64,000 nucleotides of DNA from Eledone cirrhosa (lineage: Eukaryota). Location: NCBI GenBank assembly GCA_964016885.1, contig OZ024740.1, positions 227,416,001 through 227,480,000 of the forward strand, given 5' to 3'. The stretch's first letter is position 1; each line of letters opens with the position of its first letter. Both the position numbers and the translations under genes were made by a program. Below the pieces are notes generated by a model that did no database searches, was not told where the DNA came from, and worked only from the letters and a program-made list of their open reading frames with translations. Of the stretch, positions 7,240 to 64,000 are shown one piece after another.

Positions 7240-9690
7240 TATAAAAAATAACTTACTAGAGGCGACGGATGAGGTCTGTGGCTGGAGTAAGACCACATGC
7301 AGGAGGAGAATGACTTGGTGGTGGAACAATAAGGTAGATGAGGCAGTTAAGGCCAAGAGACAGGCATGGAAAGAATGGAAGAATGGGGGGAGCAGGGTGC
7401 ATTACATAGAGACCAAGAGGGAAGCTAGGCGACAAGTATACATAGCTAGGAGGGAAGCATAGGATAGAAAATTCAAGCATGTTTTGCAACGTGAGGACCA
7501 GAAACAGCAGGTGTTCAAGATTGCGAGGCAGTGCGTCAGAGAGAATTGTGATGTCATTGGAGAGAAGTGTATCCGGAATGATAAAGGTGAGCTTGCCCTC
7601 ACAAGTGCTGAGAAGAAAGATGCATGGAAGAGTCATTATGATAGATTACTAAATGAAAAGAATGCATGTGAAGAAGAGACCCTACCCCAAGTAGACCCTA
7701 TAGAGGGGCCAGCAGTACAAGTCAGCAGCAACGTAGTAAGTAAGGCAATCAAAGATATGAAGATGGGGAAGGCAACCGGTCCATCGAGTATAGCTGCCGA
7801 GATGCTGAAGGCATCTGGGTCTGTAGGTCACACTATAACCACACGTATTGTTAACCAGGTAATACTAGAAGGTGTCATACCAAAAGATTGGTGCAGTAGC
7901 ATCATTGTCAACTGCTACAAAGGTAAAGGTGATGCACTCGATAGAGGAAACTATAGAGGTATAAAGCTGATGAACCAGGTCATGAAAGTAACAGAAAGAG
8001 TTATAGCACAGTTCATTAGGGACCGGGTGAAACTAGATGAGATGCAATTTGGGTTTGTACCAGGGAAAGGCACCACTGATGCCCTCTTCCTTGTGAGGCA
8101 GTTACAGGAAAAGTACCTAGCTAAAAGTAAGCCACTCTACCTGGCATTTGTCGATCTTGAGAAAGCCTTTGACAGAGTTCCACGTGCTCTAATCTGGTGG
8201 GCTCTTAGAAAACTAGGAGTAGATGAATGGTTTGTGAAAGCTGTACAAGCCATGTATAGGGGAGCAGTCAGCAAAGTTAGGATTAGCAATGAGTATAGCG
8301 AGGAATTTAGCGTACAGGTTGGGGTCCACCAGGGCTCTGTTCTTAGCCCCCTCCTGTTCATCATAGTCCTGCAGGCAATAACAGAGGAGTTTAAGACTGG
8401 ATGCCCATGGGAACTCCTGTATGCAGATGACCTCGCACTTATAGCTGAATCTATGGTAGAACTGGAGAAGAAATTCCAAACTTGGAAGCAGGGACTAGAA
8501 AGAAAGGGTCTCAAAGTCAACATGACAAAGACTAAGGTCCTTGTAAGTAGACGAGAAGAGAGAACCCAGATCCCCTCAGGGAAATGGCCTTGCTCAGTAT
8601 GTAGGAAAGGTGTAGGTAGGAACTCCATTCTCTGCCCCAAATGCAAACAATGGGTACACAAGAGATGTAGCGGGATCTCAGGAAGCTTAATTAAGAATGT
8701 AGGATTCACATGCAGCAGCTGCGCTGGGACAGCAAGCAGCAAACAGCCACAGGAAACAAGTACCACCAAACTCTGGGATGGCTCTGTAGAAACAGTAGAC
8801 AGCTTCTGCTACCTAGGTGACCGAATTAGCAGTGGAGGTGGGTGTTCAGAAAGTACAATAACTAGGGTAAGAACGGAATGGAAGAAGTTTAGGGAACTAC
8901 TACCACTGCTAGCTGCAAAAGGCTTCTCCCTCAAAATGAAAGGCAGACTGTATGATGCATGTATCCGAACAGCGATGTTGCATGGTAGTGAGACCTGGGC
9001 GCTGAAAGTGGAAGACTTACGTAGATTAGAGAGAAACGAAGCCTGCATGCTCCGATGGATGTGTAATAGTAATATACGCGACCGACAAAGCATAAATGAA
9101 TTGAGAGAGAGACTGAGCATAAGAGGAATCAAATGCTGTGTGCAGGAGGGGCGGTTGCATTGGTATGGACATGTGATGCGTATGAAGGATGACAGCTGCA
9201 TAAAAAGGTGCAGAGTACTAGAAGTCGATGGAAACCGCGGAGTGGGGAGACCCAAGATGACCTGGGATGAGGTGATGAAAGCCGACCTTACCCAATTACA
9301 CCTCTCAAAGGTGATGACACACGACCATGACCTCTGGCATCACGCAGTAATACAGAGTACCTAATCTCCCATAGGTACAAGCTGAAGCATATAGACAATA
9401 TGCCCCCACACCCCCCACTGCAAGGTGGTCGTGGAGGTGCCACGGCAAAAAAGCACCCAGCCCACACTGTAAAGTGGACGTGTAGGCGCCACGGATAAAA
9501 GCACCCTGCACTCACTGTAAATGAGGTTGGTGTTAGGAAGGGCATCCAGCTGTAAAAATCAAGCCAAATCAGTTCCTGTATGAGCAAGGCATGCTCAGCC
9601 GACCAGACACTGCCCACAAGAGGACAATCCGTCTAACCCATGCTAGCATGGAAGAACGAACATAAAACGGTGATGAAGATGATGATGATA
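7240..9690 (+). mobile_element. RTE-clade LINE, 5'-truncated, with 3' UTR and (GAT)n tail
   Basis: Highly similar to 63081-64000 over the shared part; begins abruptly at a TA tract; premature TAG near 7460 where the other copy has GAG. Confidence 0.95.
7484..9364 (+). CDS. Non-LTR (RTE) reverse transcriptase, N-terminally truncated, with internal C4HC3 finger
   Basis: KATGP, YKGKGD..NYRGIKL, QFGF, FVDLEKAFD, GVHQGSVLSPLLF, LYADD, GLKVNMTKT, FCYLG, RLHWYGHVMR, GRPKMTW. Confidence 0.95.
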   Translation: MQREDQKQQVFKIARQCVRENCDVIGEKCIRNDKGELALTSAEKKDAWKSHYDRLLNEKNACEEETLPQVDPIEGPAVQVSSNVVSKAIKDMKMGKATGPSSIAAEMLKASGSVGHTITTRIVNQVILEGVIPKDWCSSIIVNCYKGKGDALDRGNYRGIKLMNQVMKVTERVIAQFIRDRVKLDEMQFGFVPGKGTTDALFLVRQLQEKYLAKSKPLYLAFVDLEKAFDRVPRALIWWALRKLGVDEWFVKAVQAMYRGAVSKVRISNEYSEEFSVQVGVHQGSVLSPLLFIIVLQAITEEFKTGCPWELLYADDLALIAESMVELEKKFQTWKQGLERKGLKVNMTKTKVLVSRREERTQIPSGKWPCSVCRKGVGRNSILCPKCKQWVHKRCSGISGSLIKNVGFTCSSCAGTASSKQPQETSTTKLWDGSVETVDSFCYLGDRISSGGGCSESTITRVRTEWKKFRELLPLLAAKGFSLKMKGRLYDACIRTAMLHGSETWALKVEDLRRLERNEACMLRWMCNSNIRDRQSINELRERLSIRGIKCCVQEGRLHWYGHVMRMKDDSCIKRCRVLEVDGNRGVGRPKMTWDEVMKADLTQLHLSKVMTHDHDLWHHAVIQST

Positions 9691-11668
9691 TCATCATCAT
9701 CATCATCATCGTTTAACATCTATCTTCCATGCTAGCATGGGTTTAGATGGGAATTGTCCCACTTCAGACAAGATTGGTTGTCTTGCTCGTGTAGGACTGT
9801 CTGGCAGGTTTTCTACGGCTGGATGCCCTTCCTAACACCAACCACGTTTACAGTGTGGACTAGGAGGTTTTTACCGTGTTACCTACATGGCCACATTACA
9901 GCGTGGACTGTGTGTTTTTTTGTCGTGACACCTACACGACCTCATTTATTTAGGACTGGATGTTGTGGTACCAACATAACTTTATAGCAAAAGGGGTGGT
10001 GTCGATGGGGGTGGGGCTAGGGGTTGTTTGATGGGGGGTGTATTTTTGGTTAAGAGGTGGCTACTGACTGTAGGTTTCGCTTTGTACTTAGGCAAGGCAG
10101 GTCTTCTGTATTACTGCGTATCACCAAAGATCTCGGTCCAGTGATATTGTCTTGGAGAGTGTGTAAGTGTGTAAGGTCAGAATTTATCAAATCGTCCCAA
10201 GTTTTTCTGGGTCTGCCTACTCCATAGCTTCCCTCTATTTTGATTGCCCTGCACTTTTTATACAGCTGTCATCTTTCATGCGCATCACATGACCATACCA
10301 ATGTAGTTTTCTCTTGAGTAAACAGCATCTGATCCCTCTTATTCCTAATTTCTCACTTAGTTCATTTATGCTTTGCCGTTCACGTATATTACTATTACAC
10401 ATCCAACGGAGCATGCAAGCTTCATTCCTCTCCAGTCTGCGCAGATTCTCTGCACACAATGCCCATGTCTCACTGCCATGTAACATTGTTGTTCGTATGC
10501 AGGCATCATACAGTCTGCCTTTCATTTATAGAGAGAAACCTTTAGCGGCCAATAGTGGTATAAGCTCTCTGTACTTTTTCCATCCCGTTCTGACTCTAGC
10601 TACTGTACTTTCAGAGCACCCACCACCACTGCTGATTTTGTCAACCAGGTAACGGAAGGTGTCCACTATTTCTATAGAACCATCTGGGCAATGGAAGGAA
10701 CTAGTATCCTGTGGGCACTTGCTACTACTTATTGCACCTGAGCACCTGCCACATATAAAATATATGTTCTTAGTTAGCTTACCTGTGATCCCACTACATC
10801 TTTTATGTCCCCATACTTTGCATTTGGGACATAAAATGGAGTTTCTGCCTACTTCTTTCCTACACACTGAGCATGGCCATTTCCCAGAGGAGACCAGTGC
10901 CCTATTTTCCTTCCTACATACTAGAACTTTAGTCGTAGACAAGTTAATTTTAAGGCCTTTTGATTCTAGGCCATGCTTCCATGTTTGGAATTTCTTCTCT
11001 AGTTCAGCCATTGATTCAGCTATGAGCGTTAGATCAACTGCATATAGAAGTTCCCATGGGCAGCCGATCTTGAACTCCTCTGTTATAGCCTGAAGGGCAA
11101 TAATAAATAGGAGGGGGCTAAGGAGAGAGCCCTGATGAGCACCAACTTTTACGCTAAATTCTTCACTATATTCATTGTTAATTCTAACCTTGCTGACTGT
11201 TTCTTTATACATGGCTTGTATAGCTCTCACAAGCCATTCATCAACACCTAGTTTTCTGAGAGCCCACCAGATAATGGAGCAGGGGACTCTGTCAAAGGTT
11301 TTCTCCAAGTCAACAAAAGCTAAGTATAGGGGTTTACTTTTAGCTAGATACTTCTCCTGTAGTTGTTGTACAAGGAAAAGAGCGTCTGTGGTACTTTTAC
11401 CTGACACTAACCCAAACTGCATTTCATCTAGATCAATTCACTCTCTGATTAGTTGCGCTATAACTTTTTCTGTGACCTTCATGACCTGGTCAATTAATTT
11501 AATGCCTCTAGTTTCCCCTATCTAGGGCATCTCCTTTACCCTTGTAGCAGTTAATGGTGATACTGCTACGCCAGTCGTTTGGTATGACCCATTCTGTATG
11601 ACTTGGATTACTATCCGGGTGACCATAGTGTGTCCCACCATTCCAGATGCTTTCAGCATTTCAGCAAC
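9691..11668 (-). mobile_element. Second RTE LINE subfamily, 5'-truncated and disrupted
   Basis: ORFs 10526-11422 and 10235-10525 give RT motifs (FVDLEKTFD, GAHQGSLLSPLLF, LYAVD instead of YADD) with stop/frameshifts; 3' UTR ends in (ATC)n at 9691. Confidence 0.93.
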
Positions 11669-39189: not shown

Positions 39190-39194
<5 letters not shown>

Positions 39195-41005
39195 CCTCAA
39201 TCTAGAGTCCGGCCTCTACTACTCGTACCACAAGCCGAACGAGTGCCTCAAGTACGTGAATACCAACTCCAACCATCCCGGGTCAGTCAGGAGGGCCATT
39301 GTTAATAGCGTATCCCGTAGGATTTCTTCTCTGTCAACTAGCCAGGAAACCTTCAATAGCGTAGCTAGCTACTATAATAATGCCCTTATAATGCAGGTTA
39401 CAAGGAAGGAATTAAGTTTATACCTAGTCTAATGAATTACGTTACCGCTGACAGTAACACTTCAGTGGGAATCAACGACGGGATCAACATGATTAGAACT
39501 TCATTACTCGTTCCTGATACAACACCACAGAGTAATCCTGGAGGAACTGCTATCCATGGCTTATCAGGAAGGGACCAGACCTCACCTACTTTGGAAAGCA
39601 GTGAAGTCAACGCGGTGGAGCCGCGGGGGACATGTGTGGGCCCGGGAGTGAGCGTGGAAGGTACTAACCACCTCCCTCGCTATGAGCGGGGACCACTCAG
39701 CTCGGGGAGCTCCGGTCGGCGTAACCAACCCAACAGGCAGCGACGAATTGGAGGGCATGGCTATTCCAGACGTCCACAACGGCTACATAACATACTCTGA
39801 CAGAACGGGTACATGGACTGGTGACTACAGCAAGAAGCGAACCCGTTCCCGTAATGTCATTTGGTTTACCCCCCCCCCCTTTTACGCCGGTTTACGCAAC
39901 AACATAGCGGCCTCTTTCTTCAGGGCTTTGGATAAGCACTTCCATAAGCAACACCGGTACCACACCATCTTCAACAGGCACATGGTTAAATTGTCCTACT
40001 CCACAACTAGAAACCTAGCACAAAACATAGAAGCCTTGAACCGCAGTAGATTAAAAAACGTCCGCAACTCCATGGGAAACAGCAACCGTGAGAAGACGCA
40101 CCACGCAAATACCTCTTCCTCTGTTGGTAACGTCTTGGACCGTGAAAGACCGGAGAATCACGCAACGCGTTCCGGTGATACAGGCGGCAACACCCCTCCG
40201 GGCTGTAATTGTAGAAACCCCGGTAGCTTCCCCCTGGAGGGTAGGTGTCTCGGCAGTGGCTTAGTATATGAATGTAGGGTGACTACCAGCAACCATGCCT
40301 TCACCTATATCGGATCCACGGCTAATAAGTTTAAGGAAAGCTGTACAATCACTACCACACCTTTAAGAGGGTTAAGAAGCACAGCACCGCCCTCTCAGAA
40401 CTAGTGTGGCGTCTCAAACGGGATAACTTGGAATACACCTTGTCAACAAAGAGGGTGGACATGACTCATGCGATTTGTGTGCCCCCGAGATTATGGAAAT
40501 AATCAAGAGGGGAGCTCGAGTTATCAATAAAAGGAGTAACCTCTTCAGCACCTGCCTTCACAGATCTTCTGGAACCTTCATCAAACTGTACAGACTAGCA
40601 ACGTAGTGGTGCTAGTTGAACACTTTTGTAATCTTGTCCGTGGAAGCCGGACATAGCCTCGCGGCAACCCCAGCATCAAGCGAGCCTTGGATATCTTGTT
40701 TGCACACCTGGAGACTCTATGTGTACTTGTTTCTTGTCATTTGTTCCCTATTCCTCTGTTTATATACCTACTACTGTTTTTTTTATGTATTTTGTCCCGT
40801 TCCTTTATTATTGTGTTCTCTATATGTGTTCTCGTTTCTTATCTGCTTGTTCCTGTCCCTACTTTCGCTTCCCGTAACTCTCTTCCATGGTCTAACAGCC
40901 CTTTTGATAGTATTGTTGCCACTGTGGTTAGGACTGAATGCTATGATCATTGCTGGCCTTGTGTCTTCCAATGATAGAGGAGCATTGTATTAACTAGGAA
41001 TGTTT
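39190..41005 (+). mobile_element. Penelope-like element, 5'-truncated: RT C-terminus/thumb, Cys-rich linker and GIY-YIG endonuclease, frameshifted
   Basis: VTLNLESGLYYSYHKPN..YVNTNSNHP..RRISSLS..YYNNAL; RSRNVIWFTPP..LDKHF..IFNRHMVKLSYS; CNCR..PLEGRCL..LVYECRV..YIGST..FKE. Sits between (TG)n and (TA)n. Confidence 0.9.
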
Positions 41006-41879
41006 ATATATATATAAATACCCATCTATGTTTCTATCCCATCTTCACCTCCTTGTTTCAACGGACTACTATTGTGGTTAGTTTAATTTTCATGGAAGCG
41101 TGGTTTTTTTCCTGTTGCCGCCGTCGCCCTGGTGGGGTCATCGCTGGTCTTGTTGTTGTTATTGGTGTTACCAATGGCTTAATACTGACATAGTGGATAC
41201 CACCACTACTGCGATGAACGGGATGGGTGATGGGCGGTGTTGGTGTTTGTTGTCATTGTTGTTGTTACTGTTTATGGTCATGGTGATTGATACCACCAAC
41301 TCTGTGTACCCACCTACCTCTAAACTCCTTTTTATTGCTTTGGCGTCATCGCTGTTTACGGTCAACAGGGTGGCACCGTCACTGTGACGACTACGACCTG
41401 TATACATGACGCAGGTCTGTGTTTTTGCTGCTATTGTCGTTTGTTGCTGTTGTCGTTTTAAGTGTTTTTACTGTAGCTGGTGTTTTAGTTGGTGTTGTCA
41501 ATAGGGTAATGGTATCAGCACGACTATTGCGACCAGTATTGATAACTTTGGTCGGCGGTTTGTTGTTATTGTCATTGTTGTTGTTGTAGTTGTCGTTGTT
41601 GTTGTTATTGTTGTTGTTGTCTATAGGTGGTCGTCAACTAAATGTATACCCCCACCCCCCACCCCCACCCCACCCGCCCTCAGAGCTCCTTGTTTTCCTT
41701 CAACTGTCTGCTGGGTTTTGGTTGCACACAGTTCTTTGTTCTTTTCGTCTTTTTTCGTTGATAGCTTTCTCTAACAAACGCGACGGCTGGTAAACCCTTC
41801 AAGGAACTCAATGTATGCTGGGCGCACAGGCATTAGGATGTGTGTTTTCCTGCCAGCGGCATATCAAATATATCGATCT

Positions 41880-41967
41880 TCATCTGACGAAACCGTTCTC
41901 ATAATCAACAGCAAATGCATAAAGGACATCTCGATTGCATGGAGAACCTTAGAAATAATTATTATGA
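41880..41967 (+). ncRNA. Degenerate minimal type I hammerhead ribozyme
   Basis: Stem I UCAU/AUGA, CUGACGA 41884-41890, stem II GUUCUC/GAGAAC with unpaired base, GAAA 41952-41955, palindromic stem III AUAAUUAU, predicted AUU site at 41963. Confidence 0.6.
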
Positions 41968-42152
41968 TTAAACGATATATGTAACCTCAGCATCTTATTT
42001 TGTTATATATATATATATATACTAACCCATACAATTACTAATACTCTTTTATTCCTAATTAAACCATTTTTCAACTGTGAACAATTTGTCAGCATTTTCT
42101 ATTCCCTTTACCAATATATAATAACTTGTGTGTTACACCTCTATTCTTTTAA

Positions 42153-42177
<25 letters not shown>

Positions 42178-42184
<7 letters not shown>

Positions 42185-42519
42185 AAGTTAAATAAAAGTC
42201 AAATGATTAAAATTTAGCTTCGTTTATTACTGCTATATATATTTCAGTGACAGCCATCTTTGGCTGTGACCTCTTCAGGCAGTTTGAATATGTACTTGTC
42301 TATACCATACTAATTCAAACTGCCTGAAGAGGTCACAGCCAAAGATGGCTGTCACTGAAATATATATAGCAGTAATAAACGAAGCTAAATTTTAATCATT
42401 TGACTTTTATTTAACTTTATTTTACACTACTCCGGAGTAACCAAACCAACCTGCGCACTTCGTCGAGTGCTCCAGCCTGCATACTGAGGTATTGGTATAC
42501 AACCAACATAAACTCAAAA

Positions 42520-42522
<3 letters not shown>
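42178..42522 (+). mobile_element. Fold-back element family D: 112-bp apparently perfect arms containing a complete hammerhead
   Basis: Arms 42178-42289 / 42313-42424, 23-nt loop, tail to 42521, (TA)n flanks. Confidence 0.92.
42319..42373 (+). ncRNA. Minimal type I hammerhead ribozyme (mirror copy on - strand at 42229-42283)
   Basis: Stem I ACUGC/GCAGU; CUGAAGA 42324-42330; 11-position stem II (G-U closing pair, C-C mismatch); GAAA 42357-42360; palindromic stem III AUAUAUAU; predicted cleavage after 42368. Confidence 0.85.
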
Positions 42523-42597
<75 letters not shown>

Positions 42598-48064: not shown

Positions 48065-48131
48065 TATTTTATCTGATGAGGACGTACTGTTGAAGTTAAC
48101 TCAGTACCTCTGAAATATGTATAATAAAATA
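48065..48131 (+). ncRNA. Minimal type I hammerhead ribozyme
   Basis: Stem I UAUUUUAU/AUAAAAUA (8 bp); CUGAUGA 48073-48079; stem II GGACGUACUG/CAGUACCUCU; GAAA 48112-48115; stem III AUAUGUAU; predicted AUA site at 48123. Confidence 0.82.
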
Positions 48132-60312: not shown

Positions 60313-61517
60313 ATATTTCTTTATTTGCCACAAGGGCGCACAAGAAAGGGGGACAAAACAAGGACACATGCCAGGGATTTTACATACAGTCGTGTAAAAA
60401 TATTGAAACAAACAAATTTAACAATCGAAATCCCCAATAGTGGGGATGCCCCACCAAATGGGTTGTTTAATACCCCCGTCGATAGAACAACCCTCAACTT
60501 CAGGAGCGTGTTGTGCAAGTGGCTCCTTTCTTCCTTTTGCTCTCTTCTTCAACCTACAGGTTTATATACAGACAGACAGATAGATATCTTTCTTTATTAA
60601 GATATCTTTCTTTATTAGATATCTTTCCAGACAGATAGATAGATAGATAGATAGATAGATGGATGGATTGATAGATAGATAGATAGATTTCTTTATTAGC
60701 CACAAGGGCGCAACAAGAAAGGGGACAATACAAAGACATGCCGGGGATTTTACATACAGTCGTGTAAAATATATAAAAACAAACAATTTCAACAATCGAA
60801 ATCCCCAATAGGGGGAAGGCGCCACAAATGGGTTGTTTAATACCCCGCCGATAGAACAACCCTCAACTCAAGGAGCGTGTTGTGCAAGTGCTCCCTTCTT
60901 CCTTTTGCTCTCTTCCTCAACCTACAGGCTTATAAACAGAGAAGGCCCAATCCCTCGGGCCATTTTCGCTTCATTCACCCACCTTTCAGTAAATTTACTG
61001 GGGTGCAGTGCCTCTCTCTCCACTCTGACTCTCCTTCTAAAGTGATACTTAAAGAAGGGAATCAATTGTTGTCTGGAGAGAAAGACATCTGTCCTCAGTC
61101 CTCTCAATCTCGTCCACCATATAACCTCTTTCACCATAGCCGCTGTACAGAGGAAAACCACCTTGTCAGCGAGACAAGTTGTGGGAAGGCCTGTCTCACA
61201 AACGGTGCCCACACCGGTTGGGGGTCGGTGAGGAATACCTGAAGATGCCGTAGCCTCAGCGCATGTTTGCGCATTATTAGCTACGGCATGCCTAGCCCTC
61301 CGTTGGAAGGGTGTTGACAGCAGACGGATCTCCTCACCAGTGGAGCCTGCTTCTTCCACAGGAACTGAAAGAGCATGCGTTCCATCTTGGTGAGGTATTC
61401 ACGGGGACAAGGCACAACAGTCAAGCGGTAGTAGATGACGGACGCTATGAAACTGTTTGCCACCTCCGCTCGACCTTTCAAAGACAGTTTGCACTCTGCC
61501 CACTTCTGGGTGAGCGC
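60313..61517 (-). mobile_element. Tx1/L1-like LINE 3' fragment with duplicated 3' UTR in (GATA)n
   Basis: KGRAEVANSFIASVIYYRL..ERMLFQFLWK..VRRSVCCQHPSNGGLGMP; 3' UTR present twice (about 60315-60565 and 60688-60930), each ending AATAAAGAAAT next to TATC repeats. Confidence 0.85.
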
Positions 61518-61519
61518 AA

Positions 61520-61790
61520 ATTTGTTCTTCTTCCTTGTGTCTCCTCTTCTTTCTGGACTAATTTTGTTTACTCCATCTTATTTTGTTTACTACAAGATGG
61601 AGTAAACAGAATAAGACCAGAAAGAAGAAGAGGCACAGAGAAGAACAAATAGTCACTGATAGGGTCACAGAATGTGTCACGAAAGAACTTTGACAAACTA
61701 ATTAATAACTAATAATAAAGCTGAAGTGAAAATCAAATAATGTGTGTGTTTTTATTTGAAAAATTGACAACATGGCTACTTTGCAAATAT
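61520..61790 (+). mobile_element. Older family C-related fold-back element with degenerate hammerhead
   Basis: Imperfect arms 61520-61579 / 61594-61650 pivoting at AAGATGG; then GTCA-CTGATAG-GGTCACAGAATGTGTCAC-GAAAGAACTTTGAC. Confidence 0.75.
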
Positions 61791-62102
61791 ATATATATAT
61801 ATACACACACTGATGTAGTATTAACTTGGATATTTACCATGCGACCCTCAGTTCCTACCTCACAATTTCCCTCCCCCCCACCCCCACACACCACCATAGT
61901 CTATTCGACCAATCAAACCTAGCATGCCATTTCCACTGCTGCTGCTGCTACTACCTGCCTAACTAACTCTCTCCTCCTCTGGCGCATCCCAACACACCCT
62001 GCCATTACCCCACCACCACTGTCCTTCTAGCCCTCAATTTTCCCACCGTTATGGATGGATGAGCTGGGAATACACGAGCAACTCTGAATCAATAGATGAA
62101 AT

Positions 62103-64000
62103 ATGAATCTGCGAGCTACCAAGCACCCACGTGAAGCGCCAACCCAGAGACCCTCCCCTACGAGTGTCGACAAATGCCCAAAACTCCGAGTTGGTACCAT
62201 CAATGTAGGCTCAATGAAAGGAAGAGCAGGAGAAATCGTAGAAATGCTAGAGCGAAAGGAAGTTGATGTATGCTGTGTGCAAGAGACTAGATGGAGAGGA
62301 GGGTCTGCTAGAGTCCTTGTAGGAAAAAGCCAGTGCTACAAATTTTTATGGGTGGGAAATGACGATGGGATGGGTGGTGTAGGTATACTATTAGCTGACA
62401 AGTGGGTAGATAAAGTAATCTCAGTGTACAGGGTAAATGCAAGAATCATTAAACTCAGACTAGTCCTGAATAAGACAATTACCACAATAATATCAGCTTA
62501 CGCACCCCAATCGGGGCTGCCAGACGAACTTAAGGATAGGTTTTACGAGTCCCTAATACACACTACTGCTCTAACAGACGACAAGGACTTCCTAATCATT
62601 GCAGGAGATTTTAACGGACACGTAGGTAAACACTGCGACGGCTTCAATAGAGTACATGGAGGCCATGGAGTTGGCACAAGGAATGAGGAAGGATTCAGAC
62701 TTCTAGAATTCTGCGACGCCAATGACATGTCGATATGTAACACAAACTTTAAAAAACCCGACAACCACCTGATCACCTATAGATCAGGGGAACACTCTAG
62801 TCAGTTAGATTTTATCCTCATCAGAGGACGTGACAGATGGACGGTCGTAAACACAAAAGCCTTCCCCAGTGAGGAATGTACATCCCAACATAGCTTAGTT
62901 GTCAGCGACCTCACGGTCAGAACTAGACGAGCCCTGAAACAGAGGCCAACCTGGAGAAGAAAGATCTGGAAGCTGAAAGTCCCCTCAACCAGTAACAGAT
63001 TTAAAGATATTTTACTCAACGCCTACGACAGTAAAGAAGAACAGATAGAGACATTTAACGTAGAAGAGAACTGGGAGTTCCTAAAAAATAACTTACTAGA
63101 GGCGACGGATGAGGTTTGTGGCTGGAGTAAGACCTCAAGCAGGAGGAGAGTGACTTGGTGGTGGAACAATAAGGTAGATGAAGCAGTCAAGGCCAAGAGA
63201 CAGGCATGGAAAGAATGGAAGAACGGGGGGAGCAGGGTACATTACATAGAGACCAAGAGGGAAGCTAGGCGACAAGTATACTTAGCTAGGAGGGAAGCAG
63301 AGGATAGAAAATTCAAGCATGTTTTACAACGTGAGGACCAGAAACAGGAGGTATTCAAGATTGCGAGGCAGTGTGTCAGAGATAGTTGTGATGTCATTGG
63401 AGAGAAGTGTATCCGGAATGATAAAGGTGAGCTTGCCCTCACAAGTGCTGAGAAGAAAGATGCATGGAAGAGTCATTATGATAGATTACTAAATGAGGAG
63501 AATGCATGGGAAGAAGAGACCCTACCCCACGTAGACCCTATAGAGGGACCAGCAGTACAAGTCAGCGGCAGCGTAGTAAGTAAGGCAATCAGAGATATGA
63601 AGATAGGGAAGGCAACCGGTCCATCGGGTATAGCTGCCGAGATGCTGAAGGCATCTGGGTCTGTAGGTCACACTATAACCACACGTATCGTTAACCAGGT
63701 AATACTAGAGGGGGCCATACCAAAAGATTGGTGCAGTAGCATCATTGTCAACTGCTACAAAGGTAAAGGCGATGCACTAGATAGAGGAAACTATAGAGGT
63801 ATAAAGTTGATGGACCAGGTCATGAAAGTAACAGAAAGAGTTATAGCACAGCTGATTAGGGACCGGGTGAATATAGACGAGATGCAATTTGGGTTTGTAC
63901 CAGGGAAAGGCACCACTGATGCGCTCTTCCTTGTGAGGCAATTACAGGAAAAGTACCTAGCTAAAAGTAAGCCACTCTACTTGGCATTTGTCGACCTTGA
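62103..64000 (+). CDS. RTE LINE ORF (APE endonuclease plus start of RT), open to the window end
   Basis: ATG at 62103: MNLRATKH..LRVGTINVGSM..DVCCVQETRW..GGVGILL..SAYAPQ..AGDFNGHVG..NTNFKK..SQLDFIL..SQHSLVV..WWN..QFGFVPG..LAFVDL. Same frame at both ends, and no stop-terminated ORF is listed in this frame. Confidence 0.9.
   Translation, partial: MNLRATKHPREAPTQRPSPTSVDKCPKLRVGTINVGSMKGRAGEIVEMLERKEVDVCCVQETRWRGGSARVLVGKSQCYKFLWVGNDDGMGGVGILLADKWVDKVISVYRVNARIIKLRLVLNKTITTIISAYAPQSGLPDELKDRFYESLIHTTALTDDKDFLIIAGDFNGHVGKHCDGFNRVHGGHGVGTRNEEGFRLLEFCDANDMSICNTNFKKPDNHLITYRSGEHSSQLDFILIRGRDRWTVVNTKAFPSEECTSQHSLVVSDLTVRTRRALKQRPTWRRKIWKLKVPSTSNRFKDILLNAYDSKEEQIETFNVEENWEFLKNNLLEATDEVCGWSKTSSRRRVTWWWNNKVDEAVKAKRQAWKEWKNGGSRVHYIETKREARRQVYLARREAEDRKFKHVLQREDQKQEVFKIARQCVRDSCDVIGEKCIRNDKGELALTSAEKKDAWKSHYDRLLNEENAWEEETLPHVDPIEGPAVQVSGSVVSKAIRDMKIGKATGPSGIAAEMLKASGSVGHTITTRIVNQVILEGAIPKDWCSSIIVNCYKGKGDALDRGNYRGIKLMDQVMKVTERVIAQLIRDRVNIDEMQFGFVPGKGTTDALFLVRQLQEKYLAKSKPLYLAFVDL

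What the first reader, a model, noticed from the sequence alone, without database searches (positions are those of the whole stretch)
42178..42522. Complete hammerhead duplicated on both strands and locked inside a 112-bp perfect hairpin
All core nucleotides are present at 42319-42373 and mirrored at 42229-42283. A read-through transcript from either strand would contain the ribozyme together with its exact antisense, so the long duplex should out-compete the ribozyme fold. Inference: fold-back acts as a built-in safety catch that lets self-cleaving elements persist in introns. The identical arms also suggest a recent insertion.
Basis: partly seen in the sequence, partly recalled or inferred. 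Interest (0 to 1): 0.7.

Follow-up and report, generated by a model that had tools for sequence, protein, structure and literature searches.

The report
Stub of a Penelope-type jumping gene
This mirror-image hairpin with a self-cutting-RNA motif in each arm is one stub of a jumping-gene family whose motif recurs over 5,700 times in this genome, in a layout already described for such elements, and it likely arises as a by-product of insertion rather than as a safety catch.

Summary
In detail: 112-bp perfect arms (42178-42289 / 42313-42424), a 23-nt spacer, and a type I hammerhead motif in each arm. It is a 5'-truncated insertion of a Hydra-clade Penelope-like retroelement (PLE) in (TA)n. The 34-nt ribozyme core occurs 5,714 times in G000. 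A near-full-length relative (L031) carries it in 831-bp pLTRs around an RT + GIY-YIG frame with RWK, DKT and CxCX5C motifs. Inverted pLTRs, a one-sided tail and hammerheads on both strands are published, also for this clade. The duplex would mask the ribozyme (computed), but a selected safety catch is not supported: about 46 of 80 sampled loci have no antisense copy, ribozyme-less Naiad PLEs fold back too, the motif's 2-bp helix III is the weak dimer type, and no host intron was shown. What is useful: 70 of 72 two-armed copies pair one short with one long 3' end (tail ~97 nt), and 5' ends pile up 119 nt before the ribozyme. That fits priming on both target strands at two RT start sites. The scan noted this layout before on other DNA. 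Ordinary; interest low.

The parts
42154..42178 (.). (TA)n target microsatellite, left side
   Evidence: arms of the family end against (TA)n or (TC)n in nearly all loci
42178..42289 (-). inverted arm: pLTR positions q24-q135 (q = window position - 42289), ending at the family's short 3' end
42229..42283 (-). minimal type I hammerhead motif, inverted copy
42288..42312 (+). junction (AT shared by both arms at 42288-42289) and 23-nt spacer; the spacer is native pLTR sequence q1-q23 present only in the longer arm
42313..42424 (+). sense arm, q24-q135
42319..42373 (+). minimal type I hammerhead motif; predicted cleavage between A42368 and G42369; palindromic 2-bp helix III
   Evidence: layout matches the Hydra-clade rows of File S2 of PMC8557442
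42425..42521 (+). ~97-nt tail, ending at the family's long 3' end (q231-232); in full-length copies this is the sequence between the 5' pLTR and the ORF
42522..42594 (.). (TA)n target microsatellite, right side

Best explanation
The feature is a 345-bp, 5'-truncated head-to-head insertion of a Hydra-clade Penelope-like retroelement in a (TA)n microsatellite, and the hairpin likely arises because the element's enzyme copies its RNA from both strands of the cut target. Shown: family membership, 5,714 exact core matches, two fixed 3' ends about 97 nt apart, one short plus one long end in 70 of 72 two-armed copies, and variable junctions with a hot spot at q-89. Inferred: the GIY-YIG endonuclease nicks both (TA)n strands; one nick primes RT at the long start site, the other at the short one; both cDNAs stop early (often at q-89, likely the RNA's 5' end) and are joined by a few shared bases. 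Where the two cDNAs overlap, a hairpin results, and the hammerhead appears twice only because it lies 52 nt upstream of the short start site. The copy is a non-coding dead end; masking of the ribozyme would be a side effect. About 0.95 for the identity, about 0.65 for the two-primer step.
For: L031 holds the same pLTR as an 831-bp direct repeat around a broken RT + GIY-YIG frame, with an inverted truncated copy upstream (GIY-YIG Pfam E 0.0011, below the curated cut-off). Hydra-clade motifs RWK, DKT, CxCX5C, CxxC..E and N..CxH are present. End classes in two-armed copies with both ends at canonical sites: 36 of 36 long+short in sample B, 20 of 21 in sample A, 14 of 15 in sample C; for sample B, p about 7e-12 if ends were drawn independently at the single-arm ratio 21:16. 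In 20 of 36 pairs the short arm reaches more than 5 nt further 5' than the long arm, and in 6 loci (5 after dropping a duplicate) the arms do not overlap at all, so neither arm is a plain copy of the other. In L031 and L184 the inverted arm carries the tail while the direct unit ends short. Arms differ from each other at 90 of 5,026 sites (1.8%) but at 195 and 180 from the majority letter (27 pairs): same source lineage. In vitro, a PLE protein cuts and extends both strands and starts RT at two internal sites that bound the tail (PMC11167929).
Against: Short self-primed fold-backs also occur: several single-arm copies carry 10-40 nt inverted remnants at q-89, and L037, L085 and L113 have inverted arms that stop at neither end. 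Unequal arms could come from deletions across the centre of an unstable palindrome after insertion. In the window copy the long arm contains the whole short arm and the junction has residual pairing, so fold-back cannot be excluded for this copy. Exceptions: L024 long+long, L140 short+short. Sample A required a full tail, so it cannot show short+short pairs. The unit (~4.1 kb) and tail (~97 nt) are longer than published Hydra elements (<3 kb) and PLE tails (30-40 nt). No tree was built.
Confidence: 0.85

Rival explanations
1. Same element, but the inverted arm is made by self-priming: the first cDNA folds back at its 3' end, copies itself, and is cut by the endonuclease at the short end; unequal arms come from later central deletions.
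For: Residual pairing at the window junction. 201 exact zero-loop junctions at the native TCATATGA palindrome. Short fold-back remnants. Symmetric junctions inside stem II in L153 and L155. Self-priming was proposed in PMC3846280, endonuclease resolution in PMC8557442.
Against: 20 of 36 short arms hold sequence missing from the long arm; non-overlapping arms exist; in L031 and L184 each arm holds sequence the other lacks; 21 single arms end at the short site.
Confidence: 0.25
2. Safety catch: an active ribozyme would cut host pre-mRNA, so fold-back copies are kept in introns because the antisense arm masks it.
For: Computed masking is complete on both strands. Tandem hammerhead repeats are depleted from introns in Xenopus (bioRxiv 10.64898/2026.07.22.740005). 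Two insertions (L161, L185) begin exactly at the predicted cut site, a weak hint of cleavage in vivo.
Against: About 46 of 80 loci with an exact core lack an antisense copy. Ribozyme-less Naiads fold back too. Monomeric minimal hammerheads did not cleave in vitro. 92 of 100 arms run through the whole ribozyme, so templates were mostly uncut. Intron location not shown.
Confidence: 0.05
3. A self-propagating non-autonomous hairpin element (MITE- or retrozyme-like) copied as one unit.
For: High copy number, and a modal form with both arms starting near q-89.
Against: Junctions differ from copy to copy, either arm may be the longer one, the repeats are not terminal, and the loci show no short head-to-tail arrays of the pLTR unit (L180 has two direct copies ~2.2 kb apart).
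Confidence: 0.04
4. Assembly or amplification artefact (chimeric inverted repeat).
For: Perfect inverted repeats can be artefacts (own knowledge); public contigs did not bridge this locus.
Against: The outer arm end falls on the family's fixed short end, as in dozens of other loci, and older pairs have diverged arms.
Confidence: 0.01

Closest known systems
Hydra-clade EN+ Penelope-like elements (PMC8557442), e.g. Penelope-13_HM and Hydra-1_Obim
   Same: C-terminal GIY-YIG, RWK/DKT/CxCX5C/CxxC/CxH motifs, (TA)n targets, hammerhead in the pLTR. Files S1 and S2 list Penelope-13_HM with an inverted 5'-truncated copy and the same hammerhead on both strands.
   Different: A different family: its stem II word and two peptide words do not occur in that supplement. 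Unit ~4.1 kb against <3 kb, with a low-complexity stretch between RT and EN; tail ~97 nt.
Inverted pLTR with one-sided tail (Pen2a_Av of Adineta vaga, PMC3846280; Fig. 2 of PMC8557442)
   Same: Head-to-head arms, tail on one arm only, palindromes at the junction.
   Different: Tail three times longer; no target-site duplication discernible in (TA)n; the one-long-one-short rule is counted here (70 of 72).
Minimal hammerheads of metazoan PLEs (PMC4209133)
   Same: Type I, long helix II, short helix I, palindromic minimal helix III; that paper notes pairs 100-700 bp apart on opposite strands.
   Different: Cores here are under 100 bp apart; activity of this sequence untested.
Poseidon_Ac internal RT initiation (PMC11167929)
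   Same: Two RT start sites bounding the tail, AT-rich targets, uncut RNA as main template.
   Different: Other clade; there the sites lie inside the ORF, here upstream of the first ATG of the RT frame; the paper saw no strand difference between start sites, while the genomic copies here pair one of each.

Membership tests
EN+ Penelope-like element | RT followed by a C-terminal GIY-YIG endonuclease in one frame | tested here: met
   in relative L031 (broken by frameshifts): YRDD, then Y..YIG; Pfam GIY-YIG E 0.0011, under the cut-off; Pfam RT not hit. The window copy itself is non-coding.
EN+ Penelope-like element | pLTRs from partial tandems, inverted 5'-truncated copy, one-sided tail | tested here: met
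Hydra clade | RWK motif and DKT in place of DKG | tested here: met
   RRMRWKAF, HADKTNN
Hydra clade | CxCX5C linker; CxxC and CxH around the conserved E and N | tested here: met
   CNCRNPESC; CKLCLNE; N..CRH
Hydra clade | (TA)n insertion and hammerhead in the pLTR | tested here: met
Hydra clade | generally short (<3 kb); a tendency in the paper, not a criterion | tested here: not met
   unit 2708-6842 of L031, about 4.1 kb
Hydra clade | placement in the RT phylogeny | not tested
   no tree built; reference proteins were seen only cut, in the supplement
Type I hammerhead ribozyme | CUGANGA, GAAA, UH core with helices I-III | tested here: met
   helix III only 2 bp; no Rfam call
Type I hammerhead ribozyme | self-cleavage | not testable with these tools
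   indirect only: 2 of 100 arms (one insertion) start at the cut site; 1 exact junction against 0, 0, 0 at three control sites
Non-LTR retrozyme | head-to-tail arrays of short hammerhead units | tested here: not met
   the window copy and the loci are single or head-to-head
MITE / fold-back DNA transposon | terminal inverted repeats with fixed internal structure | tested here: not met
   97-nt tail outside one arm; variable junctions

The most novel reading that the evidence does not exclude
The family's thousands of stubs record a strict rule of Penelope integration: one complex primes the two target strands at two different fixed RNA sites 97 nt apart, one each, and runs off a fixed transcript start at q-89; rarely it uses the ribozyme's 3' cleavage product (L161, L185), which would show that this hammerhead cuts in vivo.
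Probability: 0.45. Interest if true: 0.45.

Novelty: new member of a known kind. Interest (0 to 1): 0.2.

Why it matters
As a structure it is ordinary. Its value is as a fossil record: how PLEs make inverted ends and tails is called open in PMC8557442 and PMC11167929, and this young, high-copy family gives exact start sites (q135, q231-232), a candidate RNA 5' end (q-89) and a counted asymmetry that an in vitro assay can test. About a third of sampled loci would yield long perfect double-stranded RNA if read through, which could feed RNA editing or small-RNA pathways (inference, untested). If the safety-catch idea were true it would be a new form of selection on ribozymes in introns, but nothing here favours it.

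Tried and rejected
Rfam: no hammerhead family at gathering score or E<=10; the miRNA hits reflect the long hairpin. Host gene: 150 open frames scanned with Pfam (most of the 163 that passed my filter; known LINE regions left out) gave LINE domains at 62100-63998 and two weak hits under cut-off, so intron status is unknown; short or unconserved exons would be missed. No RNA holder listed. Public DNA contigs of one sample did not bridge the locus, so presence or an empty site could not be told. Counting full-length copies by the pLTR-ORF junction failed: the pattern was specific to one copy (1 match; L184 differs). Pile-up of 5' ends at the ribozyme cut site: 2 of 100 arms; exact junctions 1 against 0, 0, 0: not significant. 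A genome-wide count of close inverted pairs was not obtained. Twin bulged hairpins behind both 3' ends (lead e1-8673755): a bulged hairpin starts 7 nt after the long end, no like one after the short end in one MFE fold: inconclusive. The stem II probability used a wrong pair and was redone. Homologue search gave four unnamed proteins at 25-37% identity. Lunse et al. (PMC5785218) is not held; cited only through PMC6765202.

Full report
Observation. The arms 42178-42289 and 42313-42424 are exact reverse complements over 112 bp around a 23-nt spacer; 97 further bases follow on the right, and (TA)n lies on both sides. Each arm holds a type I hammerhead motif at the coordinates given: 5-bp stem I, CUGAAGA, a long stem II with one mismatch, GAAA, and a 2-bp stem III inside the palindrome AUAUAUAU, with the cut predicted after A42368. 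Rfam does not call it. Below, q = window position - 42289, so the hammerhead from CUGC to GCAG is q31-q83.

Family. The 233 bases from the spacer to the right end match dispersed copies at 92-100% identity (40 of 171 candidates scored). The 34-nt core has 5,714 exact matches in the 3.0-Gb genome G000 and the reversed control none; a 32-nt word just downstream has 3,856. In L031 the same sequence ends an 831-bp direct repeat that flanks a frameshifted RT + GIY-YIG frame, and an inverted, 5'-truncated copy of the element is attached upstream. The frame has RWK, DKT, YRDD, CxCX5C, CxxC..E and N..CxH, the features that section 11 of PMC8557442 gives for the Hydra clade. That paper's Files S1 and S2 list a cephalopod member, Hydra-1_Obim, with another hammerhead sequence, and Penelope-13_HM with an inverted 5' copy and the hammerhead on both strands. 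Words from this family were not found in that supplement. The host looks like a cephalopod from genome size and repeat landscape; that is my inference, not tested. The window copy is a non-coding stub; its spacer is native pLTR and its tail is the sequence that lies between the 5' pLTR and the ORF in full-length copies.

Anatomy across copies. Sample B: the first 100 core matches on contig C1 gave 86 loci; 6 were the second arm of an insertion already held, leaving 80. 41 were head-to-head by the script's rule (gap up to 130 nt); in 37 both outer ends fell on canonical sites, always one at q119-138 (short) and one at q228-239 (long); the other 4 had one non-canonical end or ran into the ORF. 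L074 duplicates L070, so 36 of 36. Sample A (29 loci, L017 dropped as a near-duplicate; a full tail was required): 20 long+short, 1 long+long. Sample C (35 further loci): 14 long+short, 1 short+short, 1 long+ORF. Total 70 of 72. Single arms end short or long at 21:16; some of them carry tiny inverted remnants. 5' ends vary but pile up at q-93 to q-83: 41 of 118 arms and 32 of 100 in the overlapping sample chosen by the downstream word. One exact zero-loop junction at the native TCATATGA occurs 201 times. The site is the 5' foot of a hairpin; a reverse transcriptase stalled by that hairpin should stop at its 3' foot, so an RNA 5' end is the likelier cause (inference).

Mechanism. PMC11167929 (main text read) shows that a PLE protein cuts and extends both strands of an AT-rich target, starts RT at two internal sites that bound the tail, and mostly uses uncut RNA. 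The copies here fit that: two fixed ends, each joined to (TA)n or (TC)n; short arms that reach further 5' than their long partner in 20 of 36 pairs; arms with no overlap in L049, L070/L074, L082, L101, L119; long copies in which each arm holds sequence the other lacks. The two arms of a copy share their variants (90 differences in 5,026 sites between arms, 195 and 180 against the majority letter, 142 shared non-majority sites, 27 pairs), so they come from the same source lineage. I put double priming at about 0.65. Self-primed fold-back (proposed in PMC3846280, passages) certainly adds short remnants and, with later central deletions, could explain the rest; for the window copy alone the two cannot be told apart.

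The physics is right: every hammerhead pair drops to probability 0.00 once the antisense arm is present, on either strand and at the moment the motif is complete. The function is not supported. Both arms cover the hammerhead in 28 of 80 loci; a few more (L052-L054, L072, L082, L086) have an antisense copy further off or tail-to-tail; about 46 have none within the fetched 1-1.5 kb. Naiads make the same inverted structures without hammerheads (PMC8557442, passages). Minimal PLE hammerheads gave no monomer and low dimer cleavage (PMC4209133, parts 1-2 of 4; PMC6765202, passages), and that paper already noted pairs on opposite strands. 92 of 100 arms pass through the whole motif. In favour: tandem hammerhead repeats are under-represented in Xenopus introns (bioRxiv 10.64898/2026.07.22.740005, part 1 of 5 and passages), and L161 and L185 begin in both arms at G q80, the predicted cut, against no junction at three control sites; numbers this small prove nothing. 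No host exon was found, and the intron test needs an annotation I lacked.

Age. No difference over 112 paired sites bounds arm divergence below about 2.6% (95%); the sense part is identical to L001 and L003. The copy belongs to the youngest subfamily; identical arms are expected there and say nothing more.

Literature and novelty. Five searches found the layout, the tail and the two-strand hammerheads in print; they returned no paper that, by its listing, counts the long/short pairing, though 'tail at one end only' is stated. PMC13282606 was seen as passages only and added nothing. Supplements were read only for PMC8557442 (parts 1-2 of 59 and two searches); those of the other papers may hold such counts. 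The scan's own notes (unchecked) report the same layout, RNA-start hot spots and two-sided copying in other genomes and in another piece of this one; no note matched this sequence. Verdict: a new family of a known clade in a known layout; interest 0.2.

Noticed in passing
window 48069-48127 (+): A second, unrelated type I hammerhead motif (CUGAUGA...GAAA), followed by (TA)n about 50 nt later; likely the stub of another PLE family.
   Followed up: no
window 39193-40591 (+): Decayed coding part of another Hydra-like PLE, 45-62% amino-acid identity to L031 in pieces.
   Followed up: partly
window 41700-42000: 3' end of a different high-copy repeat ending at (TA)n (1,243 candidates); its CTGACGAAAC is not a hammerhead remnant, other copies read CTGAGGAAAC.
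   Followed up: partly
window 42010-42157: The left flank is itself a very high-copy repeat stub between two (TA)n runs (depth); three or more elements are stacked in neighbouring microsatellites.
   Followed up: no
window 42356: A common family variant has C for T here (about 40% of contig depth), turning the G.U pair that closes stem II into G-C.
   Followed up: no
L161 (C1:66.44 Mb) and L185 (C13:8.73 Mb): Two insertions whose arms both start at the predicted ribozyme cut site.
   Followed up: partly
L153, L155: Both arms start at q43, inside stem II of the hammerhead.
   Followed up: no
window 7463-9364, 10235-11437, 61281-61577, 62100-63998: LINE-type RT or endonuclease frames.
   Followed up: no
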